Shown: positions 221 to 62,742 of the stretch, in pieces
Layout of the letters: every line of letters begins with the position of its first letter
Position numbering within the stretch: the stretch's first letter is position 1
Assembly: GCA_964344825.1 (NCBI GenBank)
Contig: CAYFOT010000004.1
Coordinates: forward strand, 7,588 to 71,587
Direction: 5' to 3'
From: an uncultured Actinomyces sp.
GTDB lineage: Bacteria > Actinomycetota > Actinomycetes > Actinomycetales > Actinomycetaceae
DNA length: 64,000 nucleotides
Program-made: the position numbers and the translations under genes
Notes under the pieces: model-generated
The model's database searches: none
Seen by the model: only the letters and a program-made list of their open reading frames with translations
What the model was told of the DNA's origin: nothing

Positions 221-271
221 GGGGCGAGGGCGAGGGCGAGGCTCCGCACAGAACACCAACGCCCTCGCCCC
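221..271. terminator. Hairpin between convergent genes built from an inverted pair of the abundant GGGGCGAGGGCG motif
   Basis: GGGGCGAGGGCG (221-232) is the exact reverse complement of CGCCCTCGCCCC (260-271), with a 27-nt loop. It sits between the MFS stop (187) and the guaB1-like remnant stop (276). No clear U-tract follows it. Confidence 0.45.
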
Positions 272-275
272 GCAC

Positions 276-1102
276 CTACCAGCTGGTCCGCAGGGGCAAC
301 CCCTCTTGGTAGCCGCTTGCGGTTTGAACGCCGACGATGGCCCGCTCGGCGAACTCCTCCAGGTTGCGCGCCCCCGCGTAGGTGCAGGCGGACCTTACGC
401 CGGAGGTGATCTCATCGATCAGGTCCTCAACACCGGGCCGGGCCGGGTCCAAGTACATGCGCGAGGAGGAGATTCCCTCTTTGTACAGCGCCTTCCTTGC
501 CCTGTCGAATGATCCGCTCTTGGCGGTGCGGGCTGCAACCGCCCTGGCAGAAGCCATGCCGAATGACTCCTTGTACAGGCGTCCGTCGCCGTCAATGTGC
601 AGGTCACCAGGTGATTCGTGGGTGCCCGCGAACCAGGAGCCAATCATCACTTGGCTGGCGCCCGCCGCAAGCGCTAGGGCGACGTCACGCGGGTGGCGCA
701 CGCCGCCGTAACGACGTTGCCGGCAACGACTGGGACGGTGGGGGAGAGCGCGCGGACGCGGCTCAGGGCGTCGAGCATCTTCACCTGGTGACCATGGGCA
801 GTGTCAACGACCAGCGTGTCGATACCCGCGTCCAGCAGGGCCTGCGCCTTACCTTCCACGTCGCCATTGATCCCGACCGCGGCGGCAACCTGGAGGGAAC
901 CCGCAGCGTCGAGAGCCGGCCCATACACGCTTGACCGCACCAACCCCTTGGTTGTCACCAACCCGACCAGTTTCCCGTCCGCCACGACAGGCGCCATGTG
1001 CAGGCGCTGACCTTCGAGGAGGGTGTAGAGGTTTTCGAGGGCGTCCTCGCCTGAGAACGGGTCTGCGTTGGATAAGGGCTCGTTCGCCCCGGGGGCGGCC
1101 AA
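276..1102 (-). pseudogene. GuaB1/IMPDH-family (GMP reductase-like) gene remnant: 5'-truncated, with internal deletion and frameshift
   Basis: Two overlapping minus-strand ORFs in different frames (674..1102 and 276..701). The upstream piece carries a CBS-domain end and AAAVGINGD...VVDTAHGHQ...VVAGNVVTA. The downstream piece carries (GGV)[25 protein letters not shown]...YKESFGMAS. The active-site segment normally between them and the first ~170 aa are missing. At 690-720 the frame shift joins VVTA to GGVRHPRDV. Confidence 0.7.
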
Positions 1103-1165
1103 GTTCGCGGGGGCGCCAAGTTCGCAAGGGCTCCGCCCCGCTGTTCAGTGCTTAAGGAGAATGAC

Positions 1166-59716: not shown

Positions 59717-59717
59717 G

Positions 59718-60965
59718 ATGAAACCGGAAACGAAAGTCGTGAGGGGCGAGGGCGGAGGCCGCCGTGAAGTGCGGCCCACAGACCAGGCTCCGGAAGGTGC
59801 GGCCTCACCGGACGCGCGTCCGGTACTTAGCTTCACCGCCAAAAGGAGGGGTAAGCCGCCAGCACACCTGGCTGACTTCCCGGCCGCGAAACGCAAGGAA
59901 TGGGTAGAGGGCCTAGGCACCAAGGGCTTTCGTGCCGATCAGGTTTCGCGTCATTATTTCGCGGGAAACCAGGCGGATGCGCAAGCCATGACGGACCTTC
60001 CGCCGGCGGTAAGGGACGTGGCAGAAGAGACGCTTCTTCCGCCACTGGTTCGTGAGGTGAGCCGCCAGGTCGCTGACGGCGGGGCAACCATCAAGAACCT
60101 GTGGGGCCTCTACGACGGTGTCACGGTTGAGAGCGTACTGATGCAGTACCCGCAGAGGGTGACCCTCTGTGTTTCCTCGCAGGCCGGCTGCGGTATGGCC
60201 TGTCCTTTCTGTGCGACAGGCCAGATGGGGTTGACACGTAACCTCTCAACCGCCGAAATAGTTGAGCAGATCCGGCTGGCCCGCAAACAGTGTGAGGACG
60301 GGGAGCTCCCAGACGGCCCCACTCACCTGTCGAACGTAGTTTTCATGGGTATGGGCGAACCGTTGGCGAACATCGCAGCACTCACCCAAACGTTGCACAG
60401 GTTAGTTGACCCGGCCCCGGAGGGGTTTGGGATGTCGGCGCGGAACATCACCGTGTCGACGGTGGGCCTTGTACCGGGAATAAACAAGCTGGCATCCCTA
60501 GGCATACCTGTCACGCTGGCCGTTTCATTGCACGCGCCCGACGATGACCTCCGCGATGAGCTGATCCCAATCAACTCCAGGTGGAAGGTGGGGGAGCTCC
60601 TTGACGCCGCGCGTGCGTACTTCGTGAAGACGGGTAGGCGCGTGTCCATTGAGTATGCGTTGATAAAGGACATGAACGACCAGCCTTGGCGGGCTGCCCT
60701 TCTTGCGGAGGAACTGAACAAGCGCGGGCACGGATGGGCACACGTAAACCCCATCCCGCTGAATCCCACGCCCGGGACTATTTGGACTGCGTCCACGAAA
60801 GCAGCTCAGGATGAGTTCGTGTCGGTGCTCCGCGCGAACGGCATTCGCACAACCATTCGTGATACCCGGGGCGCCGACATCGATGGTGCGTGCGGGCAGT
60901 TGGCAACGAACTGGGCCAAGAAGAAGAGTGAAGACAAATCTACCGTGAAGAATACGGAGGACTGA
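59718..60965 (+). CDS. rlmN: 23S rRNA/tRNA adenine-C2 methyltransferase RlmN (radical SAM)
   Basis: CVSSQAGCGMACPFCATG (CxxxCxxC) and a downstream GACGQL Cys. Confidence 0.9.
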   Translation: MKPETKVVRGEGGGRREVRPTDQAPEGAASPDARPVLSFTAKRRGKPPAHLADFPAAKRKEWVEGLGTKGFRADQVSRHYFAGNQADAQAMTDLPPAVRDVAEETLLPPLVREVSRQVADGGATIKNLWGLYDGVTVESVLMQYPQRVTLCVSSQAGCGMACPFCATGQMGLTRNLSTAEIVEQIRLARKQCEDGELPDGPTHLSNVVFMGMGEPLANIAALTQTLHRLVDPAPEGFGMSARNITVSTVGLVPGINKLASLGIPVTLAVSLHAPDDDLRDELIPINSRWKVGELLDAARAYFVKTGRRVSIEYALIKDMNDQPWRAALLAEELNKRGHGWAHVNPIPLNPTPGTIWTASTKAAQDEFVSVLRANGIRTTIRDTRGADIDGACGQLATNWAKKKSEDKSTVKNTED

Positions 60966-61519
60966 TGGCTGACTTGTTTACGACCGCTAAGGGTCTGTCA
61001 AAGGGATACGACCAGGAGCAGGTTGCTAAGTTCTTTGCGGAGGCTCGAAAGGCGTACGAACGTCAAGATACGTTGGGTTCTTTCTCAGGTGAGCAGATCC
61101 GCACGTCCGCATTTGACCTAGTGAGGGGCGGCTATGACGTTCCAGCGGTTGATGCGGCACTGAACCGTTTGGAAGCAGCGTTTATCCAGCGCGACCGCAG
61201 CGCGTTCGTCGCGGAAAACGGGGAAAGCGCATGGTTCGATAAGGTCGCTGATGAGGCCACAACGCTGTATCCTCGTCTGCTTCGACCGTCGGGTGAGCGT
61301 TTCCGACACCCGGAAGGGCGCCAGCAGGGCTACTCCGCCCAGGAAGTCGATGCATTACTGGACCACATGGCGGCCTTCTTTGATGACAAGAAGACACTGA
61401 CGGAAAGCCAGTTGCGTTCCGTTACGTTCCGCGCGGCACGTGGAGCAGCGGCCTACGATGAAGCGCAGGTGGATGCGTTTATTGGGAGGGCTATCCAAGT
61501 CCTCGTCTCCGTATCGTGA
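60965..61519 (+). CDS. DivIVA-domain repeat protein
   Basis: Four copies of the G-Y-D/S-x-x-x-V-D/A-x-F/L motif (GYDQEQVAKFF, GYDVPAVDAAL, GYSAQEVDALL, AYDEAQVDAFI), characteristic of short DivIVA N-terminal-domain repeats. Confidence 0.65.
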   Translation: MADLFTTAKGLSKGYDQEQVAKFFAEARKAYERQDTLGSFSGEQIRTSAFDLVRGGYDVPAVDAALNRLEAAFIQRDRSAFVAENGESAWFDKVADEATTLYPRLLRPSGERFRHPEGRQQGYSAQEVDALLDHMAAFFDDKKTLTESQLRSVTFRAARGAAAYDEAQVDAFIGRAIQVLVSVS

Positions 61520-62742
61520 GCCCCATCGACGTTTGCATTCTTGGATCCACCGGATCCATCGGCACCCAAGCCCTCAACGTCGTGCGGAGCCATGAGGGAC
61601 AGTTCAGGGTGTTGGGGCTTGCAGCTGGCGGTTCAAGCTTGGTGCTCTTGGCGCAGCAGGTCAGAGAGTTCGCCCCGCAGGTTGTCGCGGTTGCTGCACA
61701 GATCGACCTAGAAGGAACGGATGGCGATGAGGGGGCCCACGCCCTCGCCGACGCTATTCGTGAGGTCGGCGCAGAGGCATTGGTGGGGCCGGGCTCCACG
61801 GAGGAACTGGCCGGACGTTTCCCACAGGCCACTGTTCTGAACGGTGTCACCGGAGGAATCGGACTGGCTGCCACTTTGGAGGCTTTGCGCGCGGGAAGCC
61901 AACTGGCGCTTGCCAATAAGGAATCCCTGGTTGTGGGCGGCTCCTTGGTGAAGCAAGCGATGGTGCGTCCGGGCCAGATCATCCCGGTTGACTCAGAGCA
62001 CTCTGCTCTGGCGCAGGCGCTCCTCTCAGGGGTGCATGAGCGCGGCCTAGTTTCGCCGGTTGTGACGGGCAGGACGGAAGTTCATTCTCTCGTCCTCACC
62101 GCGTCTGGCGGTCCGTTCCGCGGAAAGAAGCGTTCAGAACTGCTTGACGTAACCGCAGAACAGGCCTTGGCTCACCCAACATGGGCGATGGGCCCTGTGG
62201 TTACCGTGAACTCTTCGACCCTCATGAATAAGGGTCTGGAGCTTATTGAGGCTGCCCTTCTATTCGATATCCCGCCCTCGCAGATCACGCCCGTGGTTCA
62301 CCCGCAGTCGCTTGTTCACTCGATGGTTACGTGGGAGGACGGATCTACACTTGCGCAGGCGTCGTACCCGAACATGGAAGTCCCCATCGCGTTGGGATTA
62401 AAGTGGCCTAGCCACCTGCCGAACGTGGGGATTCCCCTGGAGTGGTCGGAGCCGACGGCGTGGACGTTTGAGCCGGTCGACGACACGACGTTCCCAGCGC
62501 TTGGTCTTGCTAGGGCGGCGTTGGAGGTTTCGCAGACACACCCGGCGGTGCTCAACGCGGCCAATGAGGTTTGCGTGGACAGTTTCCTATCTGGCCGCGT
62601 CCCGTGGGTGCGGATCGTCGACACCGTCACGGACGTGCTTGAGGAGCATGACGGTTTGCAGAACCCCAGTTACGAGGACGTCTTGGAGGCGCAGGCTTGG
62701 GCTTCTGCTAGGGCTGCGGAAATCCTTGGGGAGGCATCCTGA
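61516..62742 (+). CDS. dxr: 1-deoxy-D-xylulose-5-phosphate reductoisomerase
   Basis: ILGSTGSIGTQAL, LANKESLV, DSEHSA and NKGLE motifs. Confidence 0.92.
   Translation: MSPIDVCILGSTGSIGTQALNVVRSHEGQFRVLGLAAGGSSLVLLAQQVREFAPQVVAVAAQIDLEGTDGDEGAHALADAIREVGAEALVGPGSTEELAGRFPQATVLNGVTGGIGLAATLEALRAGSQLALANKESLVVGGSLVKQAMVRPGQIIPVDSEHSALAQALLSGVHERGLVSPVVTGRTEVHSLVLTASGGPFRGKKRSELLDVTAEQALAHPTWAMGPVVTVNSSTLMNKGLELIEAALLFDIPPSQITPVVHPQSLVHSMVTWEDGSTLAQASYPNMEVPIALGLKWPSHLPNVGIPLEWSEPTAWTFEPVDDTTFPALGLARAALEVSQTHPAVLNAANEVCVDSFLSGRVPWVRIVDTVTDVLEEHDGLQNPSYEDVLEAQAWASARAAEILGEAS

What the first reader, a model, noticed from the sequence alone, without database searches (positions are those of the whole stretch)
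221..61749. Hyper-abundant oligomer (G)GGCGAGGGCG in both orientations and several reading frames: uptake-signal-like, Chi-like or another genome-architecture word?
By eye I found at least 26 exact copies of the 9-mer GGCGAGGGC or its complement. Forward copies start at 223, 229, 1752, 1860, 3910, 3961, 5703, 6075, 6445, 6712, 25945, 27970, 43434 and 59745. Reverse copies (GCCCTCGCC) start at 261, 3586, 4095, 4695, 4710, 38995, 44595, 49180, 52620, 57733, 59054 and 61741. Flanks extend the consensus to about GGGCGAGGGCG. A rough hand estimate, assuming ~60% GC and independent bases, predicts only one or two copies on both strands of 64 kb. The word is read in different frames: as Gly-Glu-Gly (e.g. 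3910, 5703, 6445, 6712, 25945, 27970, 43434, 59745, and 44595 on the other strand), as Ala-Leu-Ala (1752, 1860, 3586, 38995, 49180, 52620, 57733, 59054, 61741), as Pro-Ser-Pro (4095, 4695, 4710) and as Gly-Ala-Arg-Ala (6075). That argues for selection or spread at the DNA level rather than on one peptide. Many GEG copies fall in linkers, termini or apparent insertions of otherwise conserved proteins, such as the AmmeMemo linker, the SDR C-terminus, the RlmN N-terminus and an IleS insert. Density is very uneven. There are 15 copies in the first 6.8 kb and none seen between about 6.8 and 25.9 kb. Forward copies dominate the left part and reverse copies the right part. Uptake sequences of Neisseriaceae and Pasteurellaceae share three of these properties: high copy number, both orientations, and inverted pairs in terminators. 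Chi or KOPS-like words and codon or mutation bias are alternative explanations. Competence-associated genes (comM, dprA) are present, but that is not evidence in itself.
Basis: partly seen in the sequence, partly recalled or inferred. Interest (0 to 1): 0.7.

Follow-up and report, generated by a model that had tools for sequence, protein, structure and literature searches.

The report
Hyper-abundant DNA word CGAGGRCG, actively maintained
An uncultured Actinomyces-family bacterium carries the 8-letter DNA word CGAGG(G/A)CG about once per thousand bases on both strands and keeps it even at silent codon positions, while removing its first four letters (CGAG) almost everywhere else; this looks like a protein-read "self" tag comparable to the DNA uptake sequences of Neisseria and Haemophilus or the HIP1 word of cyanobacteria, and has not been described in this group.

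Summary
All 26 copies of GGCGAGGGC sit at the stated coordinates, against 1.7 expected. The true core is the 8-mer CGAGGGCG: 69 copies (32 +, 37 -), with a G-rich, C-free 5' flank and a second form, CGAGGACG (30 copies).

- **Not codon bias.** Shuffles that keep protein sequence and codon usage give 12 copies against 65 observed (z about 16). Three reading frames and non-coding DNA are all enriched.
- **Not Chi or KOPS.** There is no replication polarity.
- **Maintained.** In two sister species, third codon positions inside words are 87% identical against 61% outside. More distant relatives carry other positions or dialects, such as CGAGGCCG in the Schaalia odontolytica group.
- **New: a CGAG purge.** In this clade the tetranucleotide CGAG is removed everywhere except inside the word (0.28x), mostly becoming TGAG.

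The mechanism is unresolved. I favour an uptake/recombination-biased drive like USS/DUS (about 0.35). A methylation-linked, HIP1-like process (about 0.3) is the main rival, and the CGAG purge speaks for it.

The parts
219..272 (.). Intergenic hairpin built from the word: GGGG(CGAGGG)x3 on + (word copies at 225 and 231) pairing with CGCCCTCGCCCC (copy at 260, - strand). It lies between two convergent genes.
   Evidence: RNA fold -38.3 kcal/mol, z -3.1
2947..6735 (+). Densest stretch: the Memo-AMMECR1 fusion, its radical-SAM partner and an SDR carry 20 G-form copies against 2.4 expected. Several copies lie in low-complexity linkers and termini.
225..232 (+). CGAGGGCG, intergenic
231..238 (+). 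CGAGGGCG, intergenic
260..267 (-). CGAGGGCG, intergenic
1036..1043 (+). CGAGGGCG, antisense to gene (DALE)
1754..1761 (+). CGAGGGCG, antisense (RALA)
1862..1869 (+). CGAGGGCG, antisense (VALA)
3276..3283 (-). CGAGGGCG, antisense (RALD)
3585..3592 (-). CGAGGGCG, antisense (AALA)
3912..3919 (+). CGAGGGCG, sense (GEGV), linker
3963..3970 (+). CGAGGGCG, sense (GEGD), linker
4082..4089 (-). CGAGGGCG, antisense (APS)
4094..4101 (-). CGAGGGCG, antisense (TPS)
4401..4408 (-). CGAGGGCG, antisense (AALD)
4694..4701 (-). CGAGGGCG, antisense (TPS), C-terminal tail
4709..4716 (-). CGAGGGCG, antisense (TPS), C-terminal tail
4859..4866 (+). CGAGGGCG, sense (NEGG)
5183..5190 (+). CGAGGGCG, sense (DEGV)
5533..5540 (-). 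CGAGGGCG, antisense (PPS)
5705..5712 (+). CGAGGGCG, sense (GEGG)
6077..6084 (+). CGAGGGCG, sense (ARA)
6096..6103 (-). CGAGGGCG, antisense (VALE)
6173..6180 (-). CGAGGGCG, antisense (TPS)
6447..6454 (+). CGAGGGCG, sense (GEGV)
6714..6721 (+). CGAGGGCG, sense (GEGD), SDR C-terminus
14055..14062 (+). CGAGGGCG, sense (NEGV)
16452..16459 (-). CGAGGGCG, antisense (DALA)
19145..19152 (+). CGAGGGCG, antisense (PALV); conserved in L205
20213..20220 (-). CGAGGGCG, sense (VEGG); conserved in L205
20645..20652 (+). CGAGGGCG, antisense (VALD)
21153..21160 (+). CGAGGGCG, antisense (AALD); conserved in L205
22578..22585 (+). CGAGGGCG, antisense (DALD); conserved in L205
23460..23467 (-). CGAGGGCG, intergenic
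24908..24915 (-). CGAGGGCG, upstream of ileS; conserved in L205 and L209
25767..25774 (-). CGAGGGCG, antisense (VALV) in IleS; relatives have CCAGGGCG
25947..25954 (+). CGAGGGCG, sense (GEGD) in a variable IleS insert
26268..26275 (+). CGAGGGCG, sense (YEGV) in IleS; conserved in L205 and L209
27510..27517 (-). CGAGGGCG, antisense (TALV) in IleS; conserved in L205 and L209
27972..27979 (+). CGAGGGCG, sense (GEGV) in IleS; conserved in L205
32369..32376 (-). CGAGGGCG, antisense (DALE)
34475..34482 (+). CGAGGGCG, sense (TEGV) in SMC; conserved in L205
34823..34830 (-). CGAGGGCG, antisense (SALV)
35105..35112 (-). CGAGGGCG, antisense (LALA); conserved in L205
36250..36257 (-). CGAGGGCG, antisense (PPS); conserved in L205
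36803..36810 (-). CGAGGGCG, antisense (AALD)
38949..38956 (+). CGAGGGCG, sense (REGG)
38994..39001 (-). CGAGGGCG, antisense (TALA)
41156..41163 (-). CGAGGGCG, antisense (APS)
43436..43443 (+). CGAGGGCG, sense (GEGG)
44522..44529 (+). CGAGGGCG, antisense (AALD)
44594..44601 (-). CGAGGGCG, sense (GEGG)
46042..46049 (+). CGAGGGCG, sense (FEGV)
46844..46851 (+). CGAGGGCG, sense (VEGV)
47321..47328 (+). CGAGGGCG, sense (DEGA)
48303..48310 (-). CGAGGGCG, antisense (APS)
49179..49186 (-). CGAGGGCG, antisense (GALA)
49499..49506 (-). CGAGGGCG, antisense (APS)
51261..51268 (+). CGAGGGCG, sense (SEGG)
52619..52626 (-). CGAGGGCG, antisense (AALA) in dprA
52721..52728 (+). CGAGGGCG, sense (CEGG) in dprA
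52948..52955 (-). CGAGGGCG, antisense (PPS) in dprA
53488..53495 (+). CGAGGGCG, intergenic (dprA-xerC)
54309..54316 (-). CGAGGGCG, antisense (PPS)
54333..54340 (-). CGAGGGCG, antisense (SPS)
57732..57739 (-). CGAGGGCG, antisense (NALA)
59053..59060 (-). CGAGGGCG, antisense (GALA)
59747..59754 (+). CGAGGGCG, sense (GEGG), N-terminus of radical-SAM (RlmN-like) gene
61740..61747 (-). CGAGGGCG, antisense (HALA)
62273..62280 (-). CGAGGGCG, antisense (PPS)
63202..63209 (-). CGAGGGCG, antisense (APS)
1042..63723 (.). 30 copies of the A form CGAGGACG. Start coordinates with strand: 1042-, 2733+, 4320+, 5333-, 6922-, 7700+, 8110+, 10030-, 13614-, 15041-, 15152+, 19343-, 20874+, 24977-, 25740+, 25866-, 26364-, 26946-, 28107-, 28482+, 28539+, 28641+, 30671-, 33875-, 35126+, 35314-, 36539+, 46628-, 62673+, 63716-. 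Read as E-D (sense), V-L or S-S (antisense).
   Evidence: 31 in CDS against about 11 expected; 12 of 16 conserved in L205
1..64000 (.). Window-wide depletion of the tetranucleotide CGAG/CTCG outside the word, with matching excess of TGAG/CTCA. Includes 15 copies of TGAGGGCG, the C-to-T derivative of the word.

Best explanation
CGAGGRCG (G preferred over A at position 6; graded G-rich, C-free 5' flank, roughly GGGCGAGGGCG) is a DNA word read as a whole by a protein. This Actinomycetaceae clade maintains it on both strands at about 1 copy per kb (1.5 per kb counting the A form).

**Most likely mechanism: a molecular drive of the USS/DUS type.**
1. A component of the DNA-exchange pathway (uptake, or an early recombination step) prefers fragments that carry the word.
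2. Alleles that gain or keep a copy are therefore re-introduced into the population more often than alleles that lack it.
3. Copies accumulate wherever proteins tolerate them. These places are A-L, E-G and P-S codon pairs, linkers, termini and intergenic hairpins.
4. Copies are then held in place even at synonymous sites.
5. A second, clade-specific pressure removes the tetranucleotide CGAG everywhere else, mostly to TGAG. This is most simply a CGAG-directed cytosine methyltransferase or restriction system. The drive overrides it only inside the word.

**Shown:** DNA-level enrichment, strand symmetry, whole-word and 5'-flank constraint at silent sites, lineage dialects, and the CGAG purge.

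For: **Enrichment is not codon- or peptide-driven.**
- 65 copies in CDS against 11.6, 12.6 and 7.5 under three codon-aware nulls.
- It is the top 8-mer of all under that null (z 15).
- With existing copies masked, only about 6 arise by chance.
- Three frames are each enriched: 22 vs 6.8, 27 vs 2.8 and 15 vs 1.1.
- Non-coding DNA has 6 vs 0.2.

**Strand symmetry.** 32+/37- (binomial p 0.63), with GC skew positive in 27 of 32 bins.

**Density.** 1.08 per kb, Poisson-like beyond 8 kb. From my own knowledge, DUS and USS have a similar density.

**Whole-word recognition.**
- The 5' flank preference goes beyond the null.
- Differences from relatives fall on all eight positions and include transversions.

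**Maintenance.**
- 23 of 34 words are conserved in sister L205, against 25.6% of random 8-mers (P 3e-7).
- Third codon positions inside words are 87% identical against 61% outside (Fisher 5e-8). The excess holds at every word position and for 5 nt upstream, but not downstream.

**Dialects.** Codon-aware, multi-frame enrichment of CGAGGCCG occurs in ten Schaalia/Pauljensenia loci (236 vs 79). CGAGGRCG is enriched in L001, L036, L024 and L033.

**Placement.** Copies sit on pre-adapted dipeptides or in unconstrained protein segments. This is the pattern reported for USS (PMC2817400, abstract seen).
Against: - No natural competence or uptake specificity is reported for Actinomycetaceae in the library searched. 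No uptake receptor or pilus gene could be examined. The window holds only dprA and comM, which are widespread.
- The hyper-abundant word begins with the genome's most depleted tetranucleotide. That coincidence has roughly 4% probability by chance (my estimate) and is not predicted by an uptake drive. It is the pattern described for methyltransferase targets and HIP words in cyanobacteria (PMC4390886).
- The phylogenetic distribution is patchy. There is no enrichment in L014, L005, L015, L076, L031 or L021. That fits a mobile methyltransferase better than core uptake machinery.
- Copies are not preferentially intergenic, and only one terminator-like inverted pair exists.
- Positions are not conserved beyond the sister species: 0 of 14 in L001.
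Confidence: 0.35

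Rival explanations
1. Methylation-linked word of the HIP1 type. A DNA methyltransferase recognises the core CGAG, or the whole word. Methylated CGAG decays or is restricted elsewhere. 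A methylation-dependent repair bias, or a function of the methylated site such as strand discrimination or epigenetic marking, creates and protects the extended form CGAGGRCG.
For: - CGAG is the most depleted GC-rich tetranucleotide: 289 vs 561 by Markov expectation and 269 vs 650 codon-aware. It is 0.28x in every context except before GRCG.
- The loss goes mainly to TGAG (600 vs 360) and NCG to NCA, which are transitions at the CpG.
- Non-word CGAG is conserved only 16% between sisters, against 37-48% for control tetramers.
- The purge and the highest word density co-occur in the clade window+L205+L209.
- Elhai 2015 documents methyltransferase targets that are depleted overall while one sub-instance is hyper-abundant at about 1 per kb (PMC4390886).
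- The patchy distribution among relatives fits mobile methyltransferases.
Against: - The word is non-palindromic, 8 bp long with a graded 5' flank. That is unlike the known HIP words described in PMC4390886 (palindromic methyltransferase-target words).
- Constraint covers all eight positions and 5 nt upstream, not only the bases next to a methylated C.
- Word enrichment exists in lineages without any CGAG depletion, such as L036 and the Schaalia group.
- The only proposed creation mechanism relies on MutS/MutL-type repair. To my knowledge Actinobacteria generally lack this (not tested here).
- No methyltransferase was seen; none is encoded in the window.
Confidence: 0.3
2. Array of binding sites for an abundant chromosomal DNA-binding protein (nucleoid organisation, segregation, or another genome-wide reader). 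Each copy is kept by ordinary purifying selection.
For: - There is whole-word and flank conservation at silent sites.
- Local arrays occur in intergenic DNA: (GGGCGA)x3 plus an inverted copy at 219-272 in the window, and a 51-bp tandem unit with three words each in L205 8590-8800.
Against: - About a thousand or more sites, mostly inside genes and sometimes changing amino acids, would each need selection strong enough to beat drift and the CGAG purge.
- Positions turn over completely between L001/L002 and the window.
- There is no enrichment in promoters or intergenic DNA relative to genes.
Confidence: 0.12
3. Chi-like recombination hotspot read by RecBCD, AddAB or AdnAB. It would protect broken self DNA and stimulate repair.
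For: - The word is a G-rich, over-represented octamer.
- Chi sequences are lineage-specific (my knowledge).
- A CGAG-directed nuclease would create breaks that need such protection (speculative).
Against: - There is no co-orientation with replication: 32+/37- on one replichore.
- In the Schaalia loci, enrichment over the codon-aware expectation is equal for both orientations: 3.1x and 2.9x.
- From my own knowledge, the density is several-fold above that of known 7-8-mer Chi sites.
Confidence: 0.07
4. By-product of codon usage, amino-acid composition or generic GC-rich mutation bias, with no specific recognition of the word.
For: - GAG, GGC, GCC and CTC are preferred codons.
- A-L and E-G are common dipeptides.
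- High-GC actinobacterial outgroups reach 3-6 copies per 10 kb by composition alone.
Against: - Three codon-aware nulls fail by z of about 16-20.
- The enrichment appears in three frames and in non-coding DNA.
- Sibling words CGAGGCCG and CGAGGTCG are not enriched.
- Silent-site conservation is specific to the word.
- Close relatives with similar GC content lack it (L014, L005).
Confidence: 0.03
5. Fragments of a small mobile repeat (REP- or MITE-like) scattered through the genome.
For: A few local duplications carry two copies: 4082/4094, 4694/4709 and 54309/54333.
Against: - There is no sequence conservation beyond 3-5 nt on one side.
- In IleS, 4 of 5 copies arise by substitution at aligned, conserved residues rather than by insertion.
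Confidence: 0.01

Closest known systems
DNA uptake sequences: DUS of Neisseriaceae and USS of Pasteurellaceae
   Same: - A short non-palindromic word at about 1 per kb.
- Equal numbers on both strands.
- Found inside genes in whichever frame encodes tolerable peptides, and in unconstrained protein segments.
- A weaker extended flank.
- Lineage-specific dialects among relatives.
- Conservation of copies among close species.
   Different: - The host is a Gram-positive actinobacterium with no reported competence or uptake specificity.
- Copies are not preferentially intergenic or in terminators.
- The distribution within the family is patchy.
- The word contains a tetranucleotide that is otherwise purged from the genome, which to my knowledge is not described for DUS or USS.
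HIP1 (GCGATCGC) and the 'exceptional HIPs' of cyanobacteria (Elhai 2015, PMC4390886)
   Same: - An 8-mer at about 1 per kb that is 10-fold or more over-represented.
- It is present in genes in several frames.
- It contains a shorter core that is not over-represented, or is depleted, outside the extended word.
- It occurs sporadically, with variant words in different lineages.
   Different: - HIP words are palindromes built around palindromic methyltransferase sites. This word is asymmetric and extends 4 nt on one side plus a graded flank on the other.
- No methyltransferase has been identified here.
- The proposed MutS/L-based ratchet probably cannot apply in Actinobacteria.
Chi sites and KOPS / architecture-imparting sequences
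   Same: A G-rich octamer, over-represented and lineage-specific.
   Different: The defining replication-oriented strand skew is absent.
Dcm/Vsr very-short-patch repair footprints in E. coli (over-represented CCWGG relatives, depleted CTAG)
   Same: A short word and its one-step neighbours show opposite deviations, suggesting a methylation or repair process written into k-mer statistics.
   Different: - The direction is reversed: the C form of the 4-mer is depleted and the T form enriched.
- The effect is far stronger.
- The protected context is 8 bp or longer and constrained at all positions, not only at the mismatch base.

Membership tests
DNA uptake sequence (DUS/USS) | Short word hundreds-fold commoner than chance, at about 1 per kb genome-wide | tested here: met
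   69 copies in 64 kb. About 10x over a codon-aware expectation and about 40x over the dinucleotide expectation for the 8-mer class. Only 64 kb plus about 36 kb of sister sequence was seen, not a whole genome.
DNA uptake sequence (DUS/USS) | Both orientations equally frequent, with no replication polarity | tested here: met
   32+/37-, p 0.63; GC skew is uniformly positive
DNA uptake sequence (DUS/USS) | Enrichment independent of reading frame and present in non-coding DNA | tested here: met
DNA uptake sequence (DUS/USS) | Frequent inverted pairs forming terminators; intergenic over-representation | tested here: inconclusive
   There is one intergenic hairpin (219-272). The 3-4 close inverted pairs are about what chance gives (my estimate coordinates). 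Density is 1.4 per kb in non-coding DNA against 1.1 per kb in coding DNA.
DNA uptake sequence (DUS/USS) | Related species carry the same word or a dialect, and copies are conserved at homologous positions | tested here: met
   Dialects. Conservation is 61-75% in L205 against a 26% background. It is lost at the L001/L002 distance.
DNA uptake sequence (DUS/USS) | Competent cells take up DNA with the word preferentially; a receptor exists | not testable with these tools
   This needs uptake assays. No literature on competence in this family was found.
Chi | Preferential orientation with the direction of replication | tested here: not met
KOPS / AIMS | Strong strand skew that switches at the terminus | tested here: not met
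   There is no skew within one replichore. The switch itself is not observable in 64 kb.
HIP1-type word | Hyper-abundant 8-mer at about 1 per kb, found in genes and in several frames | tested here: met
HIP1-type word | Palindromic | tested here: not met
   The reverse complement of CGAGGRCG is CGYCCTCG.
HIP1-type word | Contains a methyltransferase core that is not over-represented outside the word | tested here: inconclusive
   The statistical half is met: CGAG is 0.28x outside the word. That CGAG is a methyltransferase target is inferred, not shown.
HIP1-type word | Cognate orphan methyltransferase present in genomes with the word and absent from genomes without it | not testable with these tools
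No methyltransferase is encoded in the window.
REP / MITE-type dispersed repeat | Conserved unit longer than the core, usually with its own hairpin | tested here: not met
   Flanks are random beyond -5 and +1.
Codon or amino-acid bias artefact | Enrichment disappears when protein sequence and codon usage are held fixed | tested here: not met
   (z 16-20)

The most novel reading that the evidence does not exclude
Actinomycetaceae possess a family-wide self-DNA recognition system with dialects: CGAGGGCG/CGAGGACG in this clade, CGAGGCCG in the Schaalia odontolytica group and Trueperella. It would bias DNA uptake or recombination toward conspecific DNA. That would be the first uptake-signal-type system in a Gram-positive phylum. 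In this clade it would be coupled to a CGAG-specific methylation/restriction pressure, so that the tag is the only place where CGAG survives.
Probability: 0.3. Interest if true: 0.9.

Novelty: new variant of a known kind. Interest (0 to 1): 0.77.

Why it matters
Genome-wide, strand-symmetric recognition words have been tied to a mechanism in only two Gram-negative families (DUS, USS). HIP1 in cyanobacteria is still unexplained after 30 years.

A third, independent case would matter for several reasons:
- **New hosts.** It occurs in host-associated Actinomycetaceae, several of which (Schaalia, Trueperella, Gleimia) can be cultured.
- **Dialects.** They allow comparative tests across the family.
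- **Silent-site conservation.** It shows the word is actively maintained.
- **The core-tetranucleotide purge.** It links the word to methylation or restriction.

Together these would give a tractable system for asking how such words arise: by uptake bias, by methylation-directed repair, or by both. If uptake is involved, it would imply unrecognised natural transformation and a species barrier in a clinically relevant group. If methylation is involved, it could expose how bacteria without MutS/MutL use sequence marks. The word is also a practical marker for separating native from foreign DNA in these genomes and MAGs.

Tried and rejected
1. **Absorption of near-words.** Apparent depletion of one-off variants at positions 5, 7 and 8 equals the general CGAG depletion of 0.28x. 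It is therefore not independent evidence for conversion of near-words into words.
2. **Purge by C-to-T at position 1 only.** I first read the purge that way, but in the frame NCG|AGN the loss goes through the G (NCG to NCA). Both CpG positions change, or any synonymous escape is used. Mutation and selection cannot be separated.
3. **Same-species polymorphism.** Four Logan contigs are 99.8-100% identical to the window. Their 10 SNPs include none at a word or a CGAG site, so they are uninformative.
4. **Extending the genome.** The 3'-end protein was not on record, and the left-end protein returned only short contigs.
5. **Viral contigs.** A scan of IMG/VR for pairs of words returned chance hits in high-GC phages. 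None had this clade's signature.
6. **Literature.** Searches for the word, for actinomycete methylomes and for competence in Actinomycetaceae found nothing relevant. The single hit for CGAGGCCG is a synthetic phosphorothioate oligonucleotide.
7. **Core depletion in relatives.** No comparable core depletion accompanies the Schaalia, L001, L002 or L036 words.
8. **G-quadruplex or pause-signal readings.** I rejected these because relatives use CGAGGCCG and because the word is more enriched on the template strand.

Full report
**1. Observation.**
Dinucleotide-preserving shuffles give 1.73 ± 1.31, maximum 6.
- Counting all k-mers shows that the 9-mer is a sub-population of a commoner core. CGAGGGCG occurs 69 times, 32 on + and 37 on -. 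That is about twice the count of any non-overlapping 8-mer.
- The second most frequent independent 8-mer is its sibling CGAGGACG, with 30 copies.
- CGAGGGC is followed by G in 69 of 71 cases.
- Upstream there is a graded preference. G occupies -3, -2 and -1 in 66%, 69% and 51% of copies, and C in only 3-12%. Downstream there is none.

**2. Organism and setting.**
- IleS in the window is 82% identical to that of an uncultured Actinomyces MAG and 80% to Actinomyces minihominis.
- Near-identical short contigs occur in public metagenome assemblies.
- The window is a housekeeping region. It holds ileS, folC-like, dak, ndk, smc, ftsY, ffh, rpsP-rimM-trmD-rplS, lepB, rnhB, comM, dprA, xerC, rpsB-tsf-pyrH-frr-cdsA, dxr and rseP.
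- An accessory left end holds a Memo-AMMECR1 fusion, its radical-SAM partner, an SDR and a luciferase-like oxidoreductase.
- No methyltransferase, restriction, pilus or comE gene lies in the window.

**3. Is it more than codon usage?** I called genes with a codon log-odds model checked against Pfam, then ran three nulls.

| Null | Expected CGAGGGCG in CDS | Observed |
|---|---|---|
| Synonymous shuffle within each gene | 11.6 | 65 |
| Same, also preserving codon-junction dinucleotides | 12.6 | 65 |
| Full codon shuffle | 7.5 | 65 |

- The z scores are 16-20.
- Under the first null, CGAGGGCG is the most deviant of all 8-mers (z 15).
- If existing copies are frozen and the rest shuffled, only about 6 new copies form.
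- CGAGGACG has 31 copies against about 11 expected. CGAGGCCG (3 vs 7.7) and CGAGGTCG (7 vs 6.8) are not enriched.
- Enrichment holds separately in each usable frame:
  - sense xxC-GAG-GGC-G: 22 vs 6.8
  - antisense xxC-GCC-CTC-G: 27 vs 2.8
  - antisense xCG-CCC-TCG: 15 vs 1.1
- Non-coding DNA has 6 vs 0.2.
- The upstream GGG preference also exceeds the null, at 28% vs 10% (P 6e-5). It encodes Gly, Ala or Pro depending on frame, so it too acts at the DNA level.

**4. Polarity.**
- GC skew is positive in 27 of 32 two-kb bins and the cumulative skew rises monotonically. Most genes are on +. The window therefore lies on one replichore with + as the leading strand.
- The word is 32+/37- (p 0.63).
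- In the Schaalia loci a raw 181:104 strand excess disappears once codon-aware expectation is used: 3.1x sense and 2.9x antisense.

Chi-, KOPS- and AIMS-type readings lose their defining feature.

**5. Relatives.** Eighty IleS-centred loci of about 23 kb were fetched. Codon-aware enrichment of CGAGGNCG is found in several Actinomycetaceae, with a different N in different lineages:
- G and A forms in L001, L036 (Schaalia vaccimaxillae), L024 (Gleimia coleocanis), L033 (Boudabousia) and L003/L004.
- C form in ten Schaalia odontolytica/Pauljensenia loci (236 vs 79, enriched in four frames) and in Trueperella pyogenes (9 vs 0.9).
- None in L014, L005, Pauljensenia hongkongensis, S. meyeri, Mobiluncus, Neoactinobaculum or non-Actinomycetaceae outgroups.

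The word family is thus widespread but patchy, with dialects.

**6. Evolutionary dynamics.**
- *Distant relatives.* Against L001, L002 and L014 (about 70-75% nucleotide identity), the window's G-form copies are almost never shared (0/14, 2/13, 0/10). The orthologous sequences differ at all eight positions, by transitions and transversions.
- *How copies arise.* In IleS, copies sit on conserved A-L or E-G dipeptides, so the gain is synonymous. Others lie in a variable insert or where an Ala became Glu. In the Memo-AMMECR1 protein they crowd into low-complexity linkers and the C-terminal tail.
- *Sister species.* Two closer relatives were then retrieved: L205 (IleS 94% aa, about 82% nt; GCA_964616925.1) and L209 (89% aa, about 77% nt). 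Both show the same enrichment (L205 G form 15 vs 2.8 and A form 19 vs 4.9; L209 G form 15 vs 1.8).
- *Conservation of copies.* 23 of 34 window words are identical in L205, against 25.6% of random aligned 8-mers (P 3e-7). The reciprocal figure is 24 of 33.
- *Silent sites.* Third codon positions inside words are 87% identical, against 61% outside and 69% for G/C third positions (Fisher 5e-8 and 4e-5). The excess holds at every word position (45 of 47 at positions 1, 4 and 7) and for 5 nt upstream (55 of 63). It is absent downstream (43 of 64).

The whole word plus its 5' flank is therefore under constraint at silent sites. Individual copies are maintained over moderate divergence and turn over at larger divergence.

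**7. An unexpected second signal: the CGAG purge.**
- CGAG/CTCG is the most depleted tetranucleotide by the Markov (maximal-order) expectation and the most depleted GC-rich one under the codon-aware null, where only the AT-rich TTAA and AATT rank lower. The counts are 289 vs 561 by Markov expectation and 269 vs 650 codon-aware.
- 96 of the 269 copies in CDS lie inside CGAGGRCG. The rest are at 0.28x, uniformly for every following base and every other 4-nt extension.
- TGAG/CTCA is the most enriched tetranucleotide, at 600 vs 360.
- The codon before GAG ends in C in 9% of cases (29-37% before other codons) and in T in 38% (18-20% elsewhere). NCG before AGN falls to 4% and is replaced by NCA.
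- TGAGGGCG, the C-to-T derivative of the word, is itself raised (14 vs about 4-5).
- The purge is shared by L205 (80 vs 202) and L209 (51 vs 128). It is weak in L001/L002 and absent elsewhere.
- Between window and L205, non-word CGAG is conserved only 16%, against 37-48% for control tetramers. Removal is therefore ongoing.
- The depletion of one-off variants at word positions 5, 7 and 8 is just this baseline.

The picture is bimodal. CGAG is eliminated everywhere, yet it is 10-20 times commoner than that baseline, and conserved, when followed by GRCG.

**8. Interpretation.** A DNA-level force recognising the whole word of 11 bp or more must exist, and it must be strong enough to override the CGAG purge. 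I compared four readings.

- **Uptake/recombination-biased drive, USS/DUS type (about 0.35).** To my knowledge this is the only experimentally established mechanism that produces non-palindromic, strand-symmetric words at about 1 per kb, in frames of convenience, with dialects and flank gradients. I take it as the single most likely mechanism. Nothing about uptake could be tested, and competence is unreported for this family.
- **HIP1-like, methylation-linked process (about 0.3).** The coincidence of the word with the purged tetranucleotide and the patchy phylogeny favour this. Elhai 2015 describes methyltransferase targets that are depleted overall while one extended instance is hyper-abundant (PMC4390886). 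Against it are the asymmetry and length of the word, the constraint at all positions, enrichment in lineages without a purge, and the lack of any validated creation mechanism. The two readings are not exclusive. Methylation-dependent uptake or recombination is conceivable, and a 2024 preprint listed reports that HIP1 improves transformation in a methylation-dependent manner. I saw only its title and abstract.
- **Per-site selected binding array (about 0.12).**
- **Chi-like hotspot (about 0.07).**

Codon bias and a mobile repeat are effectively excluded.

**9. Novelty.** Full-text searches for the words and for related concepts in Actinomycetaceae returned nothing. I classify the finding as a new variant of a known kind, namely genome-wide recognition words. 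It has a feature I have not seen described: strong purging of the word's core tetranucleotide outside the word.

**10. Limits.**
- Only 64 kb of this genome and about 36 kb of sister sequence were available.
- The relatives all come from one syntenic neighbourhood.
- Gene calls are heuristic stop-to-stop ORFs.
- The causal proteins are unknown.

Noticed in passing
window 276-1737: Decaying region. An IMPDH/GMP-reductase-like gene is split over two frames (276-701 and 674-1102, - strand) and lacks its N-terminal part. The stretch 1144-1737 has no intact ORF, although it looks like remnants of coding sequence. Four independent metagenome contigs of the same species all end at window position 1660.
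   Followed up: partly
window 5864-5937 (+): tRNA-Arg(TCT), the only RNA gene found by Rfam and ARAGORN. It is wedged between the Memo-AMMECR1/radical-SAM pair and the SDR, whose start codon directly abuts the tRNA 3' end. The word-dense, higher-GC3 left end of the window might be an island next to this tRNA.
   Followed up: no
window 23636-23765: Five copies of (C)GAAACTACAT, three direct and two inverted, flank an AT-rich centre in the intergenic region upstream of the second ssb paralogue (22972-23433, -). It looks like an operator cluster. The sister L205 has entirely different sequence there.
   Followed up: no
L205 8590-8800: The sister species has an intergenic tandem array (about 51-bp unit, about 3 copies) in which every unit carries three copies of the word, all on one strand. 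That is 9 words in 200 bp between ssb and the formate/nitrite transporter gene.
   Followed up: partly
window 46383-47708 (+): TrmD (tRNA m1G37 methyltransferase) is fused to a C-terminal GNAT acetyltransferase domain, which looks like an unusual architecture (not compared with other TrmD proteins).
   Followed up: no
window 9057-9647 (+) and 22972-23433 (-): Two SSB-family paralogues lie within 14 kb of each other.
   Followed up: no
window 3064-4737 (+): The linker of the Memo-AMMECR1 fusion contains a local duplication (QTDAGEG twice). The tail repeats TPSP twice. Each repeat carries a word, so short duplications also multiply copies locally.
   Followed up: partly
L070 (Actinobaculum suis), e.g. 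8191-8358, 9477-9536, 15812-16050, 18854-18942: An unrelated dispersed and tandem repeat with core AATTCCGCGGTTT (36 copies of ATTCCGCG in 23 kb). It appears to be a different repeat family in a relative.
   Followed up: partly
window 44855-45496, 47872-48234, 55383-58781: Ribosomal-protein and translation-factor genes (rpsP, rplS, rpsB, tsf, frr) carry no copy of either word form. Expected numbers are small, so this is only suggestive of avoidance in highly constrained genes.
   Followed up: no
window-wide: Besides CGAG, the palindrome CACGTG is under-represented (16 vs 42 by Markov expectation), and CCAA/TTGG is enriched under the codon-aware null (599 vs 476). Neither is explained.
   Followed up: no
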